NCBI RefSeq assembly: GCF_003334815.1 | Contig: NZ_QOWO01000067.1 | Source: Escherichia coli | GTDB taxonomy: Bacteria > Pseudomonadota > Gammaproteobacteria > Enterobacterales > Enterobacteriaceae | Direction: 5' to 3' (one strand) | DNA length: 7,586 nucleotides | Part shown: positions 1-7,586 of the stretch, in pieces | Layout: each line of letters starts with the position of its first letter | How positions within the stretch are numbered: the stretch's first letter is position 1 | Translations under genes and position numbers: made by a program | Notes under the pieces: generated by a model | Database searches by the model: none | The model's input: only the letters and a program-made list of their open reading frames with translations | What the model was told of the DNA's origin: nothing

Positions 1-156
1 TTAATGAAAACACTCGATGAACTGAACCAGTCGGGAAAAGGGAAAGTGTGGTTTGCGGGGCGAGGAACCGCCCCTGAATGGCAAATGAAACGGGAAATGT
101 TGAGTCAGTGTTATACAACTAAATGGCGAGATATTCCCCTGGCCAGGCTGGGTTAG
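1..156 (+). CDS. Possible 3' end of an unidentified gene entering from upstream of the window (partial)
   Basis: Frame 1 is open from position 1 to TAG at 154..156, reading ...GKGKVWFAGRGTAPEWQMKREMLSQCYTTKWRDIPLARLG*. It ends 1 nt before the convergent parR-like stop at 158..160. Too short for the supplied ORF track; I do not recognise the family. Confidence 0.25.
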   Translation, partial: LMKTLDELNQSGKGKVWFAGRGTAPEWQMKREMLSQCYTTKWRDIPLARLG

Positions 157-157
157 T

Positions 158-574
158 TCAGTCATCTCCGAACATATTTTCAGCGTTTCTTCTGGTCTGG
201 TCTTCACCGTCATTTCTCGACAGACTCTGCTCTGTAAGAGGAGTACTGCAATCCACAGACGTATGGAGACCAGATTGTTTTTCCAGTAATTCAAGCAATT
301 TCTTTTCAACCGAAAAAGCACCTGGTATTACGCTGGAAATCACCTTATTAATATCATCCAGAGTCGTATTTTCTGTCAGTAACTCCGATATCAGCAAAGG
401 AAGACGTTTATCTATAGCTGCAAACGCCGCACCAGTAACTAACATCGCGCGCATGAAACGTCCCCGCTCCTTCAGTTTTTCATTTGCAATGAGCTCATCT
501 GCTATCTTATCTCCTGTCCGTTCATCCGGGAAAAGTTCAAATGAGCAGCGTCTGGATTTATTTTCATCACTCAT
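158..574 (-). CDS. parR: ParR/StbB-like centromere-binding adaptor of a type II (actin-type) partition system
   Basis: 138-aa ORF. The N-terminal region (RRCSFELFPDERTGDKIADEL...ERGRFMRAMLVTGAAF...LLISELLTENTTLDDINKVI) follows the pattern I associate with the ParR family N-terminal ribbon-helix-helix, and it has an acidic C-terminal tail. ATG at 574..572 overlaps the parM stop (ATGAGTGA, 8-nt overlap). GGTGGT-type Shine-Dalgarno about 9 nt upstream. Confidence 0.8.
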   Translation of the reverse strand: MSDENKSRRCSFELFPDERTGDKIADELIANEKLKERGRFMRAMLVTGAAFAAIDKRLPLLISELLTENTTLDDINKVISSVIPGAFSVEKKLLELLEKQSGLHTSVDCSTPLTEQSLSRNDGEDQTRRNAENMFGDD

Positions 575-1547
575 TAGTCACACCACCTTTCATTTTTATC
601 ATTCCCATGACTAAATCAAACTGCGGGGATGAGCTCAGATAAAAGCGCTCATCAGGAACCTTAGTCAGGTTCTTCACAGCCTCGGCCACAATTTCAGCCC
701 CACCACCAACACACATTACATGTGTATAGTCGGTGAAACGGCTGATGACATCATTAACTCGTTTAATAAGCAACTTCTGCCGTTCATTGATAACATTAAT
801 GATAGACTCACGCTGTTCAGCATTATAAATGCGACGGGAAAGGTAGTCAGGTTCATTACGGTGCACAATGATATTGTCAGCCTGGAATGAGCTCACTCTT
901 GTATTAGCATGTACAGCCATCTGTTCCTTAACCCCGGATGTAATCAGGGACACGCCGATATTCGGATCACACCAGGTTTTTGTAATCCCTGTCATTTTGC
1001 TACGAACATGCGACACATCAAGAGTTGTACCACCGAGATCTACGATCAAAAGGGATTCATCATCCTCAAGCCCCGCAAGAACACTGAAACCAGCGGGAAT
1101 ACTTTCAGGAAGAACGGAAACACTGCGAATAACAAATGCATCACTCCCCTGCACCCGTACTTCACGCATCACATTTTTTTTCTTTCTTTCAATGTTTTGC
1201 TTATTTTTCTGATTGTTGGCGTCAAGGTATTCAGAGATCGGCAATGTGACGATGACATCAACAGGCTGCGCTTTCAGGCCGGTCTGCTGTAGCGCATGCT
1301 GAATGGCCACAACATTCACATCACTGTACTGATAGCGTGTTTCAGTCGTTACGACAGCATCAGCACTTAATGGATCAAATGAAAACTTCTCGCCGTCGAT
1401 CTCGTAATTAGCCGGAGCAGCATCATCCAGTAAACTAAAAGACCATTCCGGTTTAAAGCTGTTAGGGCTGATTAACGTTTTCACGTCACCATCCTCCAAC
1501 CAGGCAAGTTTAATGTTGGTAGAACCATCATCAATAAAGATTTTCAT
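567..1547 (-). CDS. parM: ParM/StbA-like actin-type plasmid segregation ATPase
   Basis: The track ORF 567..1616 contains MKIFIDDGSTNIKLAW..., the phosphate-1 DxGxT/S motif typical of the ParM/StbA N-terminus, plus VDLGGTTLDV (phosphate 2) and CVGGGAEIV (adenosine motif). I place the start at the ATG 1547..1545 (M24 of the track ORF), which has GGAG 8 nt upstream and gives 326 aa, a typical ParM length. The stop overlaps the parR start. Confidence 0.9.
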   Translation of the reverse strand: MKIFIDDGSTNIKLAWLEDGDVKTLISPNSFKPEWSFSLLDDAAPANYEIDGEKFSFDPLSADAVVTTETRYQYSDVNVVAIQHALQQTGLKAQPVDVIVTLPISEYLDANNQKNKQNIERKKKNVMREVRVQGSDAFVIRSVSVLPESIPAGFSVLAGLEDDESLLIVDLGGTTLDVSHVRSKMTGITKTWCDPNIGVSLITSGVKEQMAVHANTRVSSFQADNIIVHRNEPDYLSRRIYNAEQRESIINVINERQKLLIKRVNDVISRFTDYTHVMCVGGGAEIVAEAVKNLTKVPDERFYLSSSPQFDLVMGMIKMKGGVTNE

Positions 1548-1960
1548 AACCAGTCTCCGTTGCTCATAAACAAATAGAAAAAACAAACATGCTTCATACA
1601 TGCAATGTATATTCAATTATAATGAAAAAACGGTCTTTCTGAAAGGACAAATGCAACATAAAAACACGATAAATTGCATGTACATTGTACACACAACTTT
1701 AAGACCAGAGGAAATCATAGATACAAAAACATTATGAAGGTTATATGTGACACATAAATGCAATATAAAAACATCGTGGACATCATGGTTCAGGTTAAGG
1801 GAAAAGGAATGAAATGGTGAAACTGAGAGGAAAGGAAAGCGGTGACGAATCATGTCACCATAAACAGAAAGATGTCTAATGGGGACTCTTTAGGTACGTG
1901 AAGAATCCCCATAACGCATTTAAAAGACACACATCAGATACCCTTAAGGTATCCGATAGT
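1548..1960. promoter_or_regulatory. parC-like centromere/promoter region upstream of parMR, also the downstream flank of the ParA/RHH pair
   Basis: AT-rich non-coding stretch with repeated ATGCAA/TTGCAT units (around 1600, 1650, 1673, 1758). The unit AAATGCAA(C/T)ATAAAAACA occurs twice (about 1649..1667 and 1756..1774). Palindromes: ATACATgcaATGTAT near 1596..1610, GGTGAC-N7-GTCACC at 1839..1857, GATACC-cttaa-GGTATC at 1937..1953. The position matches a type II centromere/promoter; exact binding sites are not determined. Confidence 0.55.
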
Positions 1961-2269
1961 TTATTGACCTATTGCACCATCACGTTCAAGCTTCTCTCTT
2001 ATAGCCTCAATAATATATGAGCTAAAATCCAGAGATGTTTTACTGGTCGCTTTAAGTTCCGCATGAGCTTCAAAATACGACAGCGGTATGGCCTTAAGAT
2101 TCTTAGCCTTCGTCCTGGCAGCCACGGGACGACCTGAAACTTCCTCTGCACCTTCATTTGGCTGAGACGGGGCTGTTGCTGTTACGGCAGAAGAAGAAGT
2201 TTGTAATCTGGCAGAATCCACCAGGTTTTTCAGTTTTTCAGCCTGTGCACTAAATTTCGCTTTGCTCAT
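1961..2269 (-). CDS. Small ribbon-helix-helix-like DNA-binding protein, candidate ParG/ParB-type partner of the upstream ParA-like ATPase
   Basis: 102-aa ORF directly downstream of the ParA-like gene on the same strand. The C-terminus (AIPLSYFEAHAELKATSKTSLDFSSYIIEAIREKLER) fits a beta-strand/helix/loop/helix RHH pattern, preceded by a low-complexity, probably flexible N-terminal tail. Shine-Dalgarno is weak and an 86-bp gap separates it from the ParA-like stop, so the assignment is an inference from context. Confidence 0.55.
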   Translation of the reverse strand: MSKAKFSAQAEKLKNLVDSARLQTSSSAVTATAPSQPNEGAEEVSGRPVAARTKAKNLKAIPLSYFEAHAELKATSKTSLDFSSYIIEAIREKLERDGAIGQ

Positions 2270-2355
2270 GAGATAACCCAGGATGTTTGTTAGATACTTA
2301 AAAGATATCCATTAAAAGCCCAAAGGATACTATATGGATACCCAATAGACACACC

Positions 2356-3000
2356 TTACTGTTTGTTATTTTCAATCAGATGATTGATTTCTTCGATCAG
2401 GGCAATAACTTCCTTACCTCCTGCCGAATAGCGCCCATGAACAGACTCAGTGATTCCCATCCCAGTCTCAATGACATCCTCAAATTCTGCACGAGCAGAA
2501 ATGCGGCTCTTCATCAGCTTCAGATGTTTGAACGATGGCAGGATTGCATCAAGCTTAGGGAATTTCTTCTTGTTAGGATTAACTTTACAGAGATACAGGT
2601 GAGCAGTTATATCGGTCCCCATGATAGAGCTGATTTCGTCCAGTACTCCATCAAAATGCATCAAACCAATACGTTCAGTCAGGGAGTCTTTTGAAGGGAC
2701 AATAACGCAGTCTGCAAAGGCAATCGCAGTACGGGTAAGATCTGAGTCAAATCCCCCACAGTCAATAAGTAACGTCTTATCGCTGTTCTTGTAGGGAGTC
2801 ATAATTTCGATTAACTCATCCACTGTTTTGGGTACTTTCACGGAAATTTCTTTTCCTTCAGGTCTCAGCCCCAGAATGATAGAAAGCCCGGTATGAGTAT
2901 CCAGATCAACTGTATCAGACTTCATTTCACCAACAATGTTTACGGATGAAGTTGTCTTACCCACACCACCTTTGGGATGCGTATTAGCAATAACAGGCAT
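2356..3000 (-). CDS. parA: Small ParA-family (ParF-like, type Ib) deviant Walker-A partition ATPase
   Basis: Deviant Walker A KGGVGKTT near the N-terminus, LLIDCGG and a VIVP Walker-B-like hydrophobic strand. Start placed at ATG 3000..2998 (M23 of track ORF 2356..3066), with GGAG 7 nt upstream, giving 214 aa, the size class of type Ib ParA/ParF proteins that lack an N-terminal HTH. Confidence 0.8.
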   Translation of the reverse strand: MPVIANTHPKGGVGKTTSSVNIVGEMKSDTVDLDTHTGLSIILGLRPEGKEISVKVPKTVDELIEIMTPYKNSDKTLLIDCGGFDSDLTRTAIAFADCVIVPSKDSLTERIGLMHFDGVLDEISSIMGTDITAHLYLCKVNPNKKKFPKLDAILPSFKHLKLMKSRISARAEFEDVIETGMGITESVHGRYSAGGKEVIALIEEINHLIENNKQ

Positions 3001-3179
3001 AGTGTATCTCCAGAATCCACATGTAATACCCATAAAGACCCCATAAGACACCTTTCGGATATCCAAGAGGTACTCAATAGATGTTTTTTTACTCTATACC
3101 GGTCCTGCATGTCAACAGAATATGAAATACCGATAATATATCCATGAGATATCCGAAAGGGATTTAAAAAAGTCAGAGC
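3001..3179. promoter_or_regulatory. Promoter/operator region upstream of the ParA-like gene
   Basis: Non-coding gap between the recombinase stop (3180) and the ParA-like start (3000). Contains the palindrome GGATATCC (3057..3064) and GATATCC (3148..3154), related to GGATAC/GATACC motifs on the other side of the operon. Confidence 0.4.
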
Positions 3180-3959
3180 TTATGGAATTCTTTTGAGCAT
3201 AGACACCGCATCGGACTCAGGCATCGAAAACTGCACCCGGTGCCGTGCAGCCACATCCAGTGCAAACACCTTCGTGTAGACCTCCGTTGAGCTGATGGAC
3301 TTATGCCCCATCAGGCTCTGCAGGACCTTCAGCGGTATACCGGCATACAGCATATGCATCGCATAGGAATGGCGGAACGTATGTGGCGTGACCGGGACAG
3401 AGAACGTCACACCGTCAGCGGCAGCGGCGGCAACCGCCTCCCCAATCCAGGTCCTGACCGTTCTGTCCGTCACTTCCCATATCCGCGCTTTCTCTGTCCT
3501 GCCTGTTCGTTTATTACGCCGTTCCATGGGGATTTTCAGTGTGGCCACCATCGTCTGCAGCTGGCTGACGTACCAGGCGTCGGAGAGCGGAACCAGCCGG
3601 TGAGTCTGCTGACCGGCGGGCATTCTTCCTGCCGTCCTGGCGGCTTTTTCCGTCCGTTGTTTCAGGGTCGCAAGCTGCACAAACGGATACGGAGGCGTGA
3701 GCGAAAAATCCCCCCGCGTCAGCGCCAGTGCTTCATTAATGCGCGCACCGGTGTTCCACAGTGTGGCCAGCAGCATCTTGCGGCGCAGATCCGGGACGTA
3801 ATGGAGCAGGGCGCTCACTTCAGGGGCCAGCAGGTATTTGGGCAGTTCATCATGAACCATCGACATCTGGCGGAGTGCCAGCGCTGCCGGATAATCGATG
3901 GCAACAGGAAGCTGAGCGGCATCCCGGGCATGGTGGATCGGTGCCGGCAGGTGCTGCAT
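3180..3959 (-). CDS. Tyrosine site-specific recombinase (plasmid resolvase/integrase family, ResD-like)
   Basis: The C-terminal region carries the tyrosine-recombinase box II signature HTFRHSYAMHML...LMGHKSISSTEVYTKV (His-x-x-Arg, then His, then the catalytic Tyr), and an ARINEAL-type box I arginine sits earlier. Start placed at ATG 3959..3957 (M52 of track ORF 3180..4112), 1 nt after the stop of the upstream ORF, giving 259 aa. Overall it resembles plasmid multimer-resolution recombinases of F-like/I-like plasmids, as recalled from memory, not searched. Confidence 0.85.
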   Translation of the reverse strand: MQHLPAPIHHARDAAQLPVAIDYPAALALRQMSMVHDELPKYLLAPEVSALLHYVPDLRRKMLLATLWNTGARINEALALTRGDFSLTPPYPFVQLATLKQRTEKAARTAGRMPAGQQTHRLVPLSDAWYVSQLQTMVATLKIPMERRNKRTGRTEKARIWEVTDRTVRTWIGEAVAAAAADGVTFSVPVTPHTFRHSYAMHMLYAGIPLKVLQSLMGHKSISSTEVYTKVFALDVAARHRVQFSMPESDAVSMLKRIP

Positions 3960-3960
3960 A

Positions 3961-4374
3961 TCAGTGTTCACTCCACGGGGAAACGTCGGGCAGGTTTTCC
4001 ACAACCCTGTATTTTCCCGGATAACGGAGCTGGTTACCGCCACGCGTCCGGACGGTGACAACAAAACCCCCGCCCTGGTTGTTTTCGGGGAGCAGGCGAT
4101 CGCACTGCTCACTCAGCATGTGGATCACAAACGGCGCATCGCTGCCGTCTTCAAATATCAGTTCCAGCGCATCGCGGCCATCCAGCGTTCCCTTACTGAT
4201 GATGACGTACTCAGCCCCCCGCATCTCCCTGAGTAAATGTTTTGCCGCATCCGGGACAAGCAGCCTGGCTTCGCCGGCATTCCAGCTGAGGTAGACATAT
4301 CCGGCCTGCGCCTGTACAGACTGCCAGTAATCCGTTCTGGCGACAGCCTGACCTTCATTCTCAATAAAAAACAT
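3961..4374 (-). CDS. Hypothetical 137-aa protein, first gene of the recombinase operon
   Basis: Track ORF 3961..4413. I start it at ATG 4374..4372 (MFFIENEGQAV...) because of a strong AAGGAG 8 nt upstream. The stop TGA at 3963..3961 is separated by 1 nt from the recombinase ATG (TGATATG). No recognisable catalytic motif or membrane segments; family not recognised. Confidence 0.6.
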   Translation of the reverse strand: MFFIENEGQAVARTDYWQSVQAQAGYVYLSWNAGEARLLVPDAAKHLLREMRGAEYVIISKGTLDGRDALELIFEDGSDAPFVIHMLSEQCDRLLPENNQGGGFVVTVRTRGGNQLRYPGKYRVVENLPDVSPWSEH

Positions 4375-4410
4375 GGGTGACTCCTTTTTTCTTTTCCGGG
4401 CAGGGACGGT

Positions 4411-4495
4411 CATGCGATAACGTCATCCATCATCACTGCCCTTACCGTCACTCCGTCTGATAACATCATGCCGTTATCATCATCACCATGATAAC
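4411..4495. repeat. GATAAC/CATG repeat cluster, candidate recombination site or operator for the adjacent recombinase operon
   Basis: GATAAC at 4416..4421, 4459..4464 and 4490..4495, inverted GTTATC at 4473..4478, and CATCATCAC twice (about 4429..4436 and 4479..4486). Three GATAAC copies abut CATG. Lies 40 to 120 bp upstream of the operon start at 4374. Confidence 0.35.
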
Positions 4496-4811
4496 AAGCA
4501 TCCATATAACCACGCCGTTAAATTACCGGAGAGCCGTTTCCGTCAGATCCGACTTTTCGGAATATCACAACTTTCCGGAAGTGTACCACGCTGAGGAAAT
4601 AATCATATCGCTGTTTTCCGCCCCTGCGCGGCGCATCACAGGTCAGGGAGATGACACAACATATAGTGTCATCAGCAGCTGAATCCGGCACCACATGTTG
4701 TGCTGACGGGAGGTGGCGTTGTGTGGGGGGAGAAGAAGATCCGTAACCGCCGGAAACCGGATCTGCGCGGCGGGAAACGGGCAAGTGATATGGTAATTGA
4801 GCAATACACAC

Positions 4812-4867
4812 AAAATCATATCAGATATGATTTTCATCATTGATGATAGAACCATATCTGATATTAT
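4812..4867. promoter_or_regulatory. Palindromic operator array and candidate sigma70 promoter for the + strand operon starting at 4943
   Basis: Perfect 23-bp palindrome AAAATCATATC-A-GATATGATTTT (4812..4834); 13-bp palindrome TCATCA-T-TGATGA (4834..4846); 11-bp palindrome ATATC-T-GATAT (4854..4864). Candidate -35 TTGATG (4840..4845) and -10 TATTAT (4862..4867) with a 16-bp spacer overlap the palindromes. Confidence 0.45.
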
Positions 4868-4942
4868 AAGAAATCAGGAGCACACAAATCATACAGGATA
4901 TTATTTTTACCTGTCAGAACATTATCAGATGGAGCGTGCAGG

Positions 4943-5197
4943 ATGGATGAAGAAAGGGTGTTTTCACTCAGCTATGAGCAACTAACCCGAATAGCGGAAA
5001 AAAATATCCGTGAATGTGGGCTGGACAACCAGAGCGCCAGGTGTATCAGTGAACTGAAGGCCTCAGCTCTGCTGTGGTTGTGGTATGAACTGGCCATTCA
5101 TGGTGCGCCACAGAACAATCACGCACAGGCCCGGGAACGCATCGATACCGATTATCAGCGCCTCAAAAAACTCATCTGGTCGGAGGGTGACAGTTAA
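4943..5197 (+). CDS. Hypothetical 84-aa protein, first gene of a two-gene operon
   Basis: ATG at 4943 with GGAG about 10 nt upstream. The stop TAA (5195..5197) overlaps the next ATG (TAATG). No transmembrane segment; family not recognised. The + strand is preferred over the long antisense ORF (5063..5803, -), whose translation is an Arg/Pro/Ala-rich artefact typical of the reverse strand of a GC-rich gene. Confidence 0.55.
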   Translation: MDEERVFSLSYEQLTRIAEKNIRECGLDNQSARCISELKASALLWLWYELAIHGAPQNNHAQARERIDTDYQRLKKLIWSEGDS

Positions 5198-5787
5198 TGA
5201 CTCAGAGCCGCCGACCGTCGCCACTGCAGCGGAGAGTGCTGATTGTGCTGGCTGCGCTTGATGAAAAACGGCCGGGCCCCGTGCTGACGCGGGACCTGGA
5301 ACGGGTGCTGGAGCGAAGCGGGGAAGCCCCGGTCTACGGGCCAAACCTGCGCGCCTCCTGCCGTCGTCTGGAGGATGCCGGCTGGCTGCGTACCCTGCGC
5401 GCCCCGAACCTGCAGCTGGCAGTGGAGCTGACGGACGCCGGCCGGGCCGTGGCACAGCCTCTGCTGCTGGCAGAACAGGACCGCCTCCGGGCAGAACAGC
5501 GTGCGGCAGAAGTCGTCGTACTGCCGCTGGTCCCGGCAGCAGGTCTGCCCGCAGACGGCACTTCTGCCACTGATCTGGCGGTGGAGCTGAACGGCATAAC
5601 GTATCAGGCCTGCCGCGGGGATTTTGTGGTGCGTCTCGACGGCAGCACCTGTCTGCAGTTATGGAATAAAGAAGGCAGGGTGGTACGCCGGGAGGGCGAT
5701 CCGCTGGAAGTGGCGCAGTGGCTGCAGGCCTGTCATGACGCAGGAATAGAGGTTCGCGTACAGATAAATGAAAGTGCCGCTCCGTAA
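5197..5787 (+). CDS. Hypothetical 196-aa protein, possible winged-helix DNA-binding N-terminal domain
   Basis: ATG at 5197 overlaps the upstream stop. The N-terminal ~90 aa (LQRRVLIVLAALDEKRPGPVLTRDLERVLERSG...) has the hydrophobic/charged periodicity of a winged-helix domain (inference). The C-terminal ~100 aa is unrecognised. Markedly GC-rich compared with the rest of the window. Confidence 0.55.
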   Translation: MTQSRRPSPLQRRVLIVLAALDEKRPGPVLTRDLERVLERSGEAPVYGPNLRASCRRLEDAGWLRTLRAPNLQLAVELTDAGRAVAQPLLLAEQDRLRAEQRAAEVVVLPLVPAAGLPADGTSATDLAVELNGITYQACRGDFVVRLDGSTCLQLWNKEGRVVRREGDPLEVAQWLQACHDAGIEVRVQINESAAP

Positions 5788-5806
5788 GAACACGCCTGTG
5801 CACGGT

Positions 5807-6154
5807 TTACACATCATCCCATGGTGGCAGCCGGTTAACTTTCCTGCGCCACCAGTGGAAAGAGGCCATGCACAGTCCGAACAAAAAACCACCCGTGATA
5901 CTTATAATAATGGCCTCACCTGCCACCATTCCTGACGGCCCCCAGTAGGTAAACCACATTACACATCCCCAGGAAATGCCCCATAAGCCCCCCGTCAGCA
6001 CCGTGACCTGCCAGAACGGCATAAAGGGTAATGGCGGAAGCCGGATACCCAGCCGCCATAGAATACGCAGAAGAGGAGGGGCATAATTGCTCCGCCACAT
6101 CTTTTTGCTGTCCATCAGGGCAATGGCCCGGGCTTTTTTCTGCTCAAAGGTCAC
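5807..6154 (-). CDS. Small inner-membrane protein (two predicted transmembrane helices), function unknown
   Basis: 115-aa ORF with a GTG start at 6154..6152, preceded by GGAGG at 7-nt spacing. Two hydrophobic segments (VTVLTGGLWGISWGCVMWFTYW and MVAGEAIIISITGGFLFGLCMASFHWW) and a positively charged C-terminus. Convergent with the 196-aa gene (19-bp gap between stops). Confidence 0.55.
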   Translation of the reverse strand: MTFEQKKARAIALMDSKKMWRSNYAPPLLRILWRLGIRLPPLPFMPFWQVTVLTGGLWGISWGCVMWFTYWGPSGMVAGEAIIISITGGFLFGLCMASFHWWRRKVNRLPPWDDV

Positions 6155-6192
6155 AGGAGCACCTCCGTTCCATGATGTAAACGTGACACAGC

Positions 6193-6260
6193 TTATTGTT
6201 ATTGATTATTATTATCATGCTGTGATTATGTTATCACGCACCGGTACACGATAACAATAA
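6193..6260. promoter_or_regulatory. Inverted-repeat-flanked promoter region upstream of the immunity gene
   Basis: Perfect 10-bp inverted repeat TTATTGTTAT (6193..6202) and ATAACAATAA (6251..6260), separated by 48 bp that contain two TGATTAT-N-TTATCA(T/C)G direct repeats. An AAGGAG Shine-Dalgarno lies 7 nt before the ATG at 6273. Confidence 0.4.
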
Positions 6261-6272
6261 AGGAGAAACCAG

Positions 6273-6620
6273 ATGAAACTGGATATATCTGTAAAGTATT
6301 TACTGAAAAGCCTGATACCAAGCCTCATTATTCTTACAGTTTTTTATCTGGGATGGAAAGATAACCAGGAAAATGCAAGAATGTTTTATGCGTTCATCGG
6401 ATGCATTATCAATGCCATTACTTTTCCTTTTTCAATGAGGATAATACAGAAAATGGTAATAAAGTTTACAGGGAAAGAACTCTGGCAAAAAGACTTCTTT
6501 ACAAATCCAGTTGGCGGAAGCTTAACTGCAATATTTGAATTATTCTGTTTCGTTATATCAGTTCCTGTGGTTGCCATTTACTTAATTTTTATATTCTGCA
6601 AAGCCCTTTCAGGAAAATGA
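6273..6620 (+). CDS. Pore-forming colicin immunity protein (colicin Ia/Ib-type, three transmembrane helices)
   Basis: 115-aa protein with three hydrophobic helices (LIPSLIILTVFYLGW; MFYAFIGCIINAITFPFSM; LTAIFELFCFVISVPVVAIYLIFIFC). Convergent with the colicin gene, 17 bp from its stop, which is the arrangement known for immunity genes of pore-forming colicins. Its length matches my recollection of the Ib-type immunity protein, unverified. Confidence 0.8.
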   Translation: MKLDISVKYLLKSLIPSLIILTVFYLGWKDNQENARMFYAFIGCIINAITFPFSMRIIQKMVIKFTGKELWQKDFFTNPVGGSLTAIFELFCFVISVPVVAIYLIFIFCKALSGK

Positions 6621-6637
6621 AAGGGCATCATTATGTG

Positions 6638-7586
6638 TCAGATACCAATAAGTTTATTGACCTGCTCAATAAACTTATCATTAACAAGCGCACTCACAGC
6701 CGCCATAATAATTGCAAAACCCAGAATACCTACAGGGGTTCCCAGCATGACGGAAAACGTCCATGCTGTAACTGCTGAAGCAGCTCTTCCTGCTGCCAGT
6801 GATTCAAGTTTTACAAAAAATGGACGCCAGTTGTCCGTTTTTACAGCCTTTTGTAACTCCACAGCAACATCATAACGATCAATAACTTTTCCGGTAAAAC
6901 CAAATGCCTTACTGAACAGCTTAAAATTCTCCGCCATATGGACCTGATTAATAGCTTCCAGGGCTTTAGAAATGGCCATGCGATCTTGTATGCTATATTT
7001 CTTGTTCAGATTATTACGGAATTTATCAAAAGCGTTCAGTGCATCATCCACACTCTTAATCTGTTTCCCTTGAGATACAGAAGCCAGCTCCTTAGCAAGT
7101 TCGGATGCTTGTTTACCGAACTCATCATATATCGTTCTGTAGAAATCAGAGGTGAGTTTTATGGCATCCTTTACCATATTTATTTCATCCCTTTTTCTTT
7201 TCTCTTCCGCTATTTTCTGATTGATGTCAGCAAGCTGGCTACGGATATTCTCTTTTTCCTTCAACAGGGCATTAAGAGCGTCATTTGCATGCTTTTGTTC
7301 ATTTGTTCTGGCACTGACGTTATTTCTCGCCGAATTTATCGCAGATTCAGCAGAGGTGATTTTATTTCTGGCATCAAGCAATCGTTGCCGTAACTTATCC
7401 CATTCAGCAACTTCAGCATTATAAATTTTCTTGTCACCTTCCACATCCTCTGTAACCACCGGATTCCGGTCATTCAGAATATTGCGTTTATAGTCCAGAC
7501 CGGAATGGGTCAGAAGATAATTCAGGTTTGCACGGTTATCGATGACTGCGCTGGTTGTGATTTTTATCGTACCGGCAAATCTCGGA
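6638..7586 (-). CDS. Pore-forming colicin of the Ia/Ib family, 3' portion (channel-forming domain); 5' end lies beyond the window
   Basis: The frame is open from the window edge (first full codon 7585..7583) to TGA at 6640..6638. The track's GTG start at 7459 is an internal valine: manual translation upstream of it continues without stops (...TTSAVIDNRANLNYLLTHSGLDYKRNILNDRNPVVTEDVEGDKK...). The C-terminus (...DNWRPFFVKLESLAAGRAASAVTAWTFSVMLGTPVGILGFAIIMAAVSALVNDKFIEQVNKLIGI) has the hydrophobic helical hairpin of a colicin channel domain and matches my memory of colicin I-type sequence. Confidence 0.85.
   Translation of the reverse strand, partial: PRFAGTIKITTSAVIDNRANLNYLLTHSGLDYKRNILNDRNPVVTEDVEGDKKIYNAEVAEWDKLRQRLLDARNKITSAESAINSARNNVSARTNEQKHANDALNALLKEKENIRSQLADINQKIAEEKRKRDEINMVKDAIKLTSDFYRTIYDEFGKQASELAKELASVSQGKQIKSVDDALNAFDKFRNNLNKKYSIQDRMAISKALEAINQVHMAENFKLFSKAFGFTGKVIDRYDVAVELQKAVKTDNWRPFFVKLESLAAGRAASAVTAWTFSVMLGTPVGILGFAIIMAAVSALVNDKFIEQVNKLIGI

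What the first reader, a model, noticed from the sequence alone, without database searches (positions are those of the whole stretch)
6273..7586. Colicin I-type module: type (Ia versus Ib) unresolved and gene truncated by the window
The colicin reading frame runs off the right edge, so the receptor-binding and translocation domains, the SOS (LexA) promoter and any upstream regulators are outside the window. The 115-aa immunity protein fits my recollection of the Ib-type length, but I cannot verify this without a comparison. The exact type matters because Ia and Ib immunity proteins are specific.
Basis: partly seen in the sequence, partly recalled or inferred. Interest (0 to 1): 0.3.

Follow-up and report, generated by a model that had tools for sequence, protein, structure and literature searches.

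The report
Colicin Ib gene with its immunity gene
This is the well-known colicin Ib toxin gene (its last 315 codons) with its matching Ib immunity gene, as carried by hundreds of sequenced IncI-type conjugative plasmids; the Ia-versus-Ib question is settled inside the window, and the result is ordinary.

Summary
Both ORFs exist as described: a 115-aa ORF on + 6273-6620, and a minus-strand frame open from 7585 to a stop at 6638-6640 (315 codons, running off the right edge). The type is Ib.

- **Colicin:** the fragment is 312/315 identical to residues 312-626 of the ColIb-P9 colicin. Its pore domain matches PDB 8IOM (colicin Ib) except at two internal positions. It is only 84/195 identical to colicin Ia over residues 432-626.
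- **Immunity protein:** 110/115 identical to the ColIb-P9 immunity protein (IMMJ_ECOLX) and 26/109 to the 111-aa Ia immunity protein. The exact allele is already catalogued as "Colicin Ib immunity protein" on at least 1000 contigs.
- **Where the types differ:** Ia and Ib differ only in a block at about 6225-7239, which lies wholly inside the window, so the missing 5' part is not needed for typing.

Part of the CirA-binding domain (residues 312-385) is inside the window. In full-length relatives the promoter has a Fur box plus degenerate overlapping LexA-type boxes, not two consensus CTG-N10-CAG boxes.

Whether the gene is complete in the source cannot be told. One side observation: the left flank carries alleles typical of ColIa plasmids, which suggests the block was exchanged by recombination. 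Already known; low interest.

The parts
6273..6620 (+). imm: colicin Ib immunity protein gene, 115 aa, complete
   Evidence: ORF. 110/115 identical to the ColIb-P9 immunity protein and 26/109 to the Ia immunity protein. The exact sequence is catalogued as 'Colicin Ib immunity protein' V5KCK8_ECOLX, in the same 90% cluster as IMMJ_ECOLX, on >=1000 contigs. Pfam PF03526. Three hydrophobic stretches at residues 5-28, 37-58 and 79-115.
6183..6212 (+). Candidate constitutive promoter of imm (GTGACA-18-TATTAT); Shine-Dalgarno AGGAG at 6261-6265
   Evidence: Consensus scan, 10/12 matches. The number of such sites in the region is no higher than in shuffles, so the evidence is positional only. The sequence was read directly.
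6638..7585 (-). cib: 3' part of the colicin Ib gene, residues 312-626 plus the stop codon; the 5' part (residues 1-311) and the promoter lie beyond the window
   Evidence: Translation. 312/315 identical to ColIb-P9 Cib residues 312-626. PDB 8IOM colicin Ib E 5.9e-120.
7364..7585 (-). C-terminal 74 residues (312-385) of the CirA receptor-binding domain, a stretch shared by Ia and Ib
   Evidence: PDB 2HDI chain B (colicin Ia R-domain) aligns to fragment residues 1-74. Pfam PF11504 model positions 31-72. 60/60 identical to Ia over residues 312-371.
6650..7201 (-). Pore-forming (channel) domain, Ib type, residues 440-623; includes the 38-residue hydrophobic stretch 575-612 (window 6683-6796)
   Evidence: Pfam PF01024, full length 2-185/185, E 2.9e-49. 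It differs from PDB 8IOM at two internal positions. 84/195 identical to Ia over residues 432-626. The hydrophobic stretch was read from the translation.
6225..7239 (.). Ia/Ib type-specific block (imm, the intergenic hairpin and the cib channel domain), flanked on both sides by sequence shared with ColIa plasmids
   Evidence: DNA identity to a ColIa plasmid is about 40-60% inside the block and >=93% outside it. Mismatches against six ColIa loci start at 6225 on the left, and the dense cluster ends at 7239 on the right.
6603..6626 (.). Perfect 9-bp stem / 6-nt loop hairpin (GCCCTTTCA...TGAAAGGGC) spanning the imm stop codon, between the convergent genes; candidate two-way transcription terminator or RNA 3' stabiliser
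   Evidence: Inverted repeat I2. It forms in the MFE and centroid folds on both strands, z -4.4 and -3.6. ColIa has a hairpin of different sequence (AGGCTGTCT...AGACAGCCT, followed by TTTTT) at the same place. It does not pass the simple terminator scan because it lacks a T-run.

Best explanation
The region holds the distal half of cib (colicin Ib) and the complete cognate imm gene, the standard bacteriocin module of IncI-complex conjugative plasmids of E. coli, Salmonella and Shigella.

Shown here: the sequence identity, the domain content, the convergent gene arrangement, the absence of a lysis gene, and the Ib type.

Inferred from established knowledge of colicins Ia and Ib:
- The 626-aa toxin binds the outer-membrane siderophore receptor CirA through its central domain. 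Part of that domain is in the window.
- It is imported in a TonB-dependent way by its N-terminal domain, which lies outside the window.
- It inserts its C-terminal channel domain (in the window) into the inner membrane and forms a voltage-gated pore that depolarises the target cell.
- The 115-aa immunity protein has three hydrophobic stretches. It is read from its own promoter towards cib, sits in the producer's inner membrane, and specifically blocks the Ib channel domain but not the Ia one.
- cib itself is repressed by Fur and LexA from a promoter beyond the window.
- Because there is no lysis gene, the toxin is released when prophage lysis genes lyse the cell.
For: Colicin type: the fragment is 312/315 identical to ColIb-P9 Cib residues 312-626. 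Its pore domain equals PDB 8IOM/9K2H 'Colicin Ib' except N509S and A587T. Over residues 432-626 it is only 84/195 identical to Ia.

Immunity type: 110/115 to the P9 Ib immunity protein and 26/109 to the Ia one. The exact allele is named 'Colicin Ib immunity protein' in UniRef and occurs on >=1000 contigs.

Domains: PF01024, PF11504 and PF03526.

How common it is: window 6200-7586 is 100% identical to at least 22 PLSDB plasmids. 600 records cover >=80% of it, and 1261 of the 1372 records with any match (which include ColIa plasmids matching only the shared part) are typed conjugative.

Organisation: full-length relatives (L002, L004, L005) have the same layout, yagA - cib (626 aa) - imm - DUF6404.

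Promoter in those relatives: GTTAATGATAAT(C/T)ACTATC (17/19 or 16/19 to the Fur consensus, by my reading), TTGACA-17-TAAATT, then CTGTATATGTATCCAT overlapping CCATAT(A/G)CGTAAGCAG.

No lysis gene: no small lipobox ORF anywhere in the window.

Literature: Fur and LexA control, CirA as receptor and the role of imm in PMC3879352; no own lysis gene and release through prophage lysis genes in PMC7374059.
Against: Nothing contradicts the Ib assignment. Limits remain:
- Residues 1-311 and the promoter are not in the window, so an intact, expressed gene in the source is not shown. At least one plasmid with a 100% identical block (NZ_AP017613) has a colicin CDS of only 424 aa next to a resistance transposon region.
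- The window alleles differ from ColIb-P9 by 3 residues in the channel domain (N509S, E547D, A587T) and 5 in the immunity protein (I17S, S47N, R64K, F70L, L108F). The effect of these on specificity was not tested.
- The imm promoter and the hairpin's terminator role rest on sequence pattern only.
Confidence: 0.96

Rival explanations
1. It is a colicin Ia module, so the immunity protein would protect against Ia.
For: PDB colicin Ia (1CII) is the top hit by E-value for the whole fragment (2e-127). RefSeq annotation calls the gene 'colicin Ia central receptor-binding domain-containing protein'. The exact alleles of the two neighbouring genes (the 196-aa ORF and DUF6404) lie next to Ia-type modules (111-aa immunity gene; BLAST-checked as Ia-type in the 10 module-bearing loci compared) in 15 of the 16 contigs sampled; in the 16th a resistance-gene insertion occupies the place of the module.
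Against: The 1CII score comes from the shared central region. Over residues 432-626 identity to Ia is 43% against 98% to Ib. The immunity protein is 24% identical to Ia's and has 115 aa rather than 111. The annotation name is a domain name, not a type.
Confidence: 0.01
2. It is an Ib-type remnant: in the source the colicin gene is truncated or interrupted beyond 7586 (by an IS or transposon insertion, or a contig end), leaving an immunity gene and a dead toxin gene.
For: NZ_AP017613 carries a 100% identical block, yet its colicin CDS is only 424 aa and is followed by tet(A)/mer transposon genes. A ColIa example (NZ_CP023385) is cut to 411 aa beside blaCMY-2. This region of IncI plasmids is a known insertion hot spot, seen here as ISEcp1-blaCMY-2, IS2 and Tn3-blaTEM.
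Against: Within the window the frame is intact for 315 codons. 576 PLSDB records cover >=80% of a full imm+cib+promoter query, against 600 covering the window part, so most Ib modules appear complete. This is a rough comparison of counts, not a per-record check.
Confidence: 0.1
3. It belongs to a different pore-forming colicin group (E1, K, 5/10, A, B, N, S4) or is a new immunity type.
For: The immunity protein's only Pfam hit is the colicin E1 immunity family. The channel domain also matches pyocin S5 and colicin E1.
Against: Those hits are far weaker than Ib: 166 and 122 bits, and 36-63 bits for S4, B, A and N, against 403 bits for Ib over the same domain. Both proteins are 96-99% identical to the ColIb-P9 references.
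Confidence: 0.01

Closest known systems
Colicin Ib / Ib immunity module of plasmid ColIb-P9 (NC_002122; Cib 626 aa, Imm 115 aa = IMMJ_ECOLX; pore-domain structures PDB 8IOM, 9K2H)
   Same: Same gene order and convergent orientation, and the same 17-nt gap with the same hairpin. Colicin residues 312-626 are 99% identical and the immunity protein 96%. Same neighbours in the full-length relatives: yagA upstream of cib, and ParA/ParM partition genes, resD-type integrase and impCAB beyond imm; the DUF6404 gene next to imm is annotated in L001, L003, L004 and L005 but not in the P9 gene table.
   Different: Allelic differences only: N509S, E547D and A587T in the channel domain; I17S, S47N, R64K, F70L and L108F in the immunity protein. 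The window allele is itself common: 100% DNA identity to at least 22 PLSDB plasmids, and the immunity protein occurs on >=1000 contigs. The window backbone lacks a 3.55-kb segment (DUF4238 gene and others) that P9 carries.
Colicin Ia / Ia immunity module (PDB 1CII, 2HDI; Ia immunity protein 111 aa)
   Same: Same architecture, receptor-binding domain, flanking genes and plasmid family. Residues 312-431 are 116/120 identical. A hairpin sits at the same intergenic position.
   Different: The channel domain is 43% identical and the immunity protein 24% identical, with 111 aa rather than 115. DNA identity is 40-60% across window 6225-7239. By established knowledge the two immunity proteins do not cross-protect.
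E1-type pore-forming colicins and pyocin S5
   Same: Same channel-domain fold family (PF01024) and the same immunity protein family (PF03526).
   Different: Only distant sequence similarity (122-166 bits against 403). Different receptor and translocation domains. Colicin E1 has a lysis gene, and none is present here.

Membership tests
Colicin Ib (cib) | C-terminal channel domain of the Ib sequence type | tested here: met
   192/195 identical to ColIb-P9 over residues 432-626. Two internal differences from PDB 8IOM. 84/195 to Ia.
Colicin Ib (cib) | Pore-forming colicin domain (Pfam PF01024) present at full length | tested here: met
   Model positions 2-185 of 185, E 2.9e-49.
Colicin Ib (cib) | Central CirA-binding domain of the Ia/Ib type | tested here: met
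   The part present (residues 312-385) matches PDB 2HDI chain B and PF11504. The first ~30 residues of that domain lie outside the window.
Colicin Ib (cib) | N-terminal translocation domain with TonB box; full length of 626 aa | not testable with these tools
   Residues 1-311 lie beyond the window edge. Full-length relatives L002, L004 and L005 encode 626 aa, but the source itself was not found.
Colicin Ib (cib) | Fur- and LexA-controlled promoter upstream of cib | not testable with these tools
   It lies outside the window. It is present and 99% conserved in three full-length relatives. Regulation is described in PMC3879352.
Colicin Ib (cib) | No lysis gene in the module (as reported for ColIb) | tested here: met
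   imm is followed directly by the DUF6404 gene. No 25-70-aa ORF with a lipobox anywhere in the window. PMC7374059 states that the ColIb system lacks its own lysis gene.
Colicin Ib immunity protein (imm, IMMJ_ECOLX) | 115-aa small hydrophobic protein of the Ib sequence type, encoded just downstream of cib on the opposite strand | tested here: met
   115 aa and 110/115 identical to the P9 protein. Stop codons 17 nt apart. Three hydrophobic stretches. Same 90% cluster as IMMJ_ECOLX.
Colicin Ib immunity protein (imm, IMMJ_ECOLX) | Protects against Ib but not Ia | not testable with these tools
   Needs a killing and cross-immunity assay.
Colicin Ia / Ia immunity | Ia-type channel domain and 111-aa Ia-type immunity protein | tested here: not met
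   43% and 24% identity respectively; 115 aa against 111 aa.

The most novel reading that the evidence does not exclude
The window may record a recent exchange of the Ia/Ib specificity block between plasmids. Positions 5400-6224 are base-for-base identical to ColIa-plasmid backbones, 4751-5399 nearly so (L007; a few more differences in L010), and 5995-7586 are base-for-base identical to an Ib module on an IncK2/Z plasmid. That places a crossover in the 230-bp shared stretch 5995-6224. In the contigs sampled, the exact alleles of the two left-hand neighbour genes were otherwise found only next to Ia modules. If true, the channel-domain-plus-immunity block behaves as a swappable unit between conserved recombination arms. 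A more remote reading is that the 3+5 substitutions relative to ColIb-P9 shift immunity specificity.
Probability: 0.5. Interest if true: 0.15.

Novelty: already known. Interest (0 to 1): 0.05.

Why it matters
Practically, the module should now be annotated as colicin Ib plus Ib immunity. A host carrying it, if the gene is complete, would kill CirA-bearing E. coli and relatives that lack Ib immunity, including ColIa producers. That is relevant to gut competition of Salmonella and E. coli (PMC3879352). The result also shows that automatic product names for this locus do not give the type: 'colicin Ia central receptor-binding domain-containing protein', 'colicin E1 family microcin immunity protein' and 'colicin transporter' all appear. 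The type has to be read from the roughly 1-kb block at 6225-7239. Nothing here opens a new question.

Tried and rejected
- **NCBIfam scan** of the immunity protein, the colicin fragment and three neighbours: no family for four of them. The colicin got only weak coiled-coil noise (SMC, Rad50) far below cut-offs.
- **Strict CTGT-N9-CAG search:** nothing at the cib promoter of a full-length relative, because both boxes there deviate in one outer triplet. The single window hit at 4312-4327 is at chance level, 100 of 200 shuffles.
- **Terminator scan:** no sites in 5700-7586. The intergenic hairpin appeared only through folding and the repeat search.
- **Finding the source to extend past 7586:** no PLSDB or complete E. 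coli record matches the whole window above 98.6%. Exact-protein look-ups with the 196-aa ORF and the DUF6404 protein returned ColIa plasmids, not the source. I ran no further search on this, because typing does not need the extension.
- **Ia type and other colicin groups:** considered and rejected.

Full report
**1. What is in the sequence**

The + strand ORF 6273-6620 starts with ATG, encodes 115 aa, and has AGGAG at 6261-6265. On the minus strand, the frame read from 7585 gives 315 sense codons and a stop at 6638-6640. It has no start inside the window, so it runs off the right edge. The two genes converge, with 17 nt between their stop codons.

**2. Type: Ia or Ib**

Against solved structures, the fragment matches colicin Ia (1CII, E 2e-127, fragment residues 1-312). 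It also matches the colicin Ib pore domain (8IOM/9K2H, E 5.9e-120, fragment residues 121-315). The alignments show why both score highly:
- Residues 312 to about 431 are nearly the same in Ia and Ib.
- The channel domain matches Ib apart from two internal positions, and is much more diverged from Ia.

I then took reference loci from annotated plasmids:
- ColIb-P9 (NC_002122, L002) has cib at 8294-10174 and a gene annotated 'colicin 1B immunity protein' at 10192-10539.
- A ColIa plasmid (NZ_CP023385, L003) has a gene annotated 'colicin 1A immunity protein' of 111 aa.

| Comparison | vs Ib (ColIb-P9) | vs Ia |
|---|---|---|
| Colicin fragment, all 315 residues | 312/315 | 200/315 |
| Colicin residues 432-626 | 192/195 | 84/195 |
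| Immunity protein | 110/115 | 26/109 |

The exact immunity sequence is already in public collections under the name 'Colicin Ib immunity protein' (V5KCK8_ECOLX). It is in the same 90% cluster as IMMJ_ECOLX and occurs on at least 1000 contigs. The type is Ib.

**3. The type-specific part lies inside the window**

A DNA alignment with the ColIa locus shows 93-100% identity from 7586 down to about 7214, then 40-60% from about 7200 down to about 6260, then 92-100% again to the left. Mismatch positions against six ColIa loci begin at 6225 on the left. On the right, the dense cluster ends at 7239. So the block that distinguishes Ia from Ib is roughly 6225-7239: imm, the intergenic hairpin and the channel domain. 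The missing 5' half of the gene is the part Ia and Ib share, so it is not needed for typing.

**4. Domains**

- Pfam finds a full-length pore-forming colicin domain (PF01024, fragment residues 129-312, E 2.9e-49). It also finds the end of the Colicin_Ia receptor-binding domain (PF11504, fragment residues 1-42).
- The crystallised CirA-binding fragment (2HDI chain B) aligns to fragment residues 1-74.
- The immunity protein hits PF03526, the colicin E1-type immunity family. It has three hydrophobic stretches at residues 5-28, 37-58 and 79-115, as expected for an inner-membrane immunity protein of this group.
- Other colicins score far lower than Ib on the channel domain (403 bits): pyocin S5 166, E1 122, and S4, B, A and N between 36 and 63.

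**5. Signals**

- *imm promoter.* A promoter-like site, GTGACA-18-TATTAT, lies at 6183-6212 upstream of imm. This is pattern evidence only.
- *Intergenic hairpin.* A perfect 9-bp hairpin at 6603-6626 spans the imm stop codon. ColIa has a hairpin of unrelated sequence at the same position, followed there by TTTTT. That conservation of structure without sequence supports a role as terminator or 3' stabiliser for the convergent transcripts. The Ib version lacks a T-run and fails the simple terminator scan, so this remains an inference.
- *No lysis gene.* No small lipoprotein ORF exists anywhere in the window. This agrees with the published statement that the ColIb system has no lysis gene of its own and is released through prophage lysis genes (PMC7374059).

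**6. What lies beyond the edge, judged from relatives**

In the full-length loci L002, L004 and L005, cib encodes 626 aa and is preceded by yagA. Their promoter regions are 99% identical to each other. They contain, in order:
- GTTAATGATAAT(C/T)ACTATC, which by my reading matches the Fur consensus GATAATGATAATCATTATC at 17/19 or 16/19 positions;
- TTGACA-17-TAAATT;
- CTGTATATGTATCCAT, overlapping CCATAT(A/G)CGTAAGCAG.

Each LexA-type box deviates in one outer triplet, so the strict pattern search does not find them. Published work reports joint Fur and LexA control of cib and contrasts it with the two LexA sites usual in most other colicins (PMC3879352).

Whether the source has this promoter and a complete gene cannot be told. 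One plasmid with a 100% identical block has a colicin CDS of only 424 aa beside transposon genes. Most records appear complete: 576 records cover at least 80% of imm+cib+promoter, against 600 covering the window part.

**7. How common it is**

- Window 6200-7586 is 100% identical to at least 22 PLSDB plasmids of E. coli and Salmonella.
- 600 records cover at least 80% of it.
- 1261 of the 1372 records with any match are typed conjugative; that total includes ColIa plasmids that match only the shared part.
- Ia-type channel domains at 90% identity or more occur in about 490 records.

This is one of the commonest bacteriocin modules of enterobacterial plasmids.

**8. Side observation: a mosaic**

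No record in PLSDB or among complete E. coli genomes matches the whole window above 98.6%. Several results explain this:
- The exact alleles of the 196-aa ORF (5197-5787) and the DUF6404 gene (5807-6154) lie next to Ia-type modules (111-aa immunity gene; BLAST-checked as Ia-type in the 10 module-bearing loci compared) in 15 of the 16 contigs sampled. In the 16th a resistance-gene insertion occupies the place of the module.
- The window has no mismatch to those Ia backbones between 5400 and 6224; 4751-5399 is nearly identical to L007 and a little less so to L010.
- It has no mismatch to the Ib module of NZ_AP017613 from 5995 to 7586.

The simplest reading is a homologous crossover within 5995-6224 that placed an Ib block on a backbone usually seen with Ia. 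That fits the known mosaic nature of these plasmids and is of minor interest.

**9. Verdict**

The feature is already known. Interest is low.

Noticed in passing
window 4751-7586 (crossover interval 5995-6224): Mosaic structure. 5400-6224 is base-for-base identical to backbones of ColIa plasmids and 4751-5399 nearly so, while 5995-7586 is identical to an Ib module on an IncK2/Z plasmid. The exact alleles of the 196-aa ORF and the DUF6404 gene lay next to Ia-type modules (111-aa immunity gene) in 15 of the 16 contigs sampled; in the 16th an insertion replaced the module. This suggests the Ia/Ib block was exchanged by homologous recombination.
   Followed up: partly
window 4740-4748: Compared with ColIb-P9 and many IncI1 plasmids, a 3.55-kb segment (DUF4238 gene plus three small ORFs) is absent here. 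The two BLAST pieces overlap by 9 bp at the junction. p1002W03_1 and the ColIa plasmids sampled also lack the segment.
   Followed up: partly
window 6648-6678, minus-strand coding sequence of cib: A perfect 13-bp inverted repeat with a 5-nt loop (ATAAGTTTATTGA / TCAATAAACTTAT) lies inside the last 13 codons of cib. It is the strongest local hairpin on both strands. The Ia gene has no comparable stem there. Its function is unknown; it might stabilise an RNA 3' end or pause the converging imm transcript.
   Followed up: partly
window 6170-6174 (L001 7639-8971): In plasmid NZ_AP017613 an IS2 element sits between the DUF6404 gene and imm. The flanking alignments overlap by 5 bp (window 6170-6174), consistent with a target-site duplication. 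The imm-proximal intergenic region is thus an insertion site in relatives.
   Followed up: no
window 5201-5600 versus 6401-7200: Sharp composition contrast: the 196-aa ORF of unknown function is 69% G+C, while the colicin/immunity block is 38%. The 196-aa and 84-aa ORFs (5197-5787, 4943-5197) have no NCBIfam hit, and no Pfam family is on record for them in the contig tables.
   Followed up: no
window 1-4413: The rest of the window is IncI-type plasmid maintenance backbone. By coordinate correspondence with annotated relatives: 3' end of a Y-family (ImpB-like) polymerase gene at 1-156; plasmid stability protein 158-574; ParM 567-1547; ParA-family ATPase about 2356-3000; tyrosine recombinase (ResD-like) about 3180-3959; a 137-aa ORF ending at 4374.
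   Followed up: partly
public annotations of the same locus: Product names for this module are inconsistent and do not give the type. The Ib colicin is labelled 'colicin Ia central receptor-binding domain-containing protein' or 'colicin'. The Ib immunity protein is labelled 'colicin E1 family microcin immunity protein', 'colicin transporter' or 'hypothetical protein'.
   Followed up: yes
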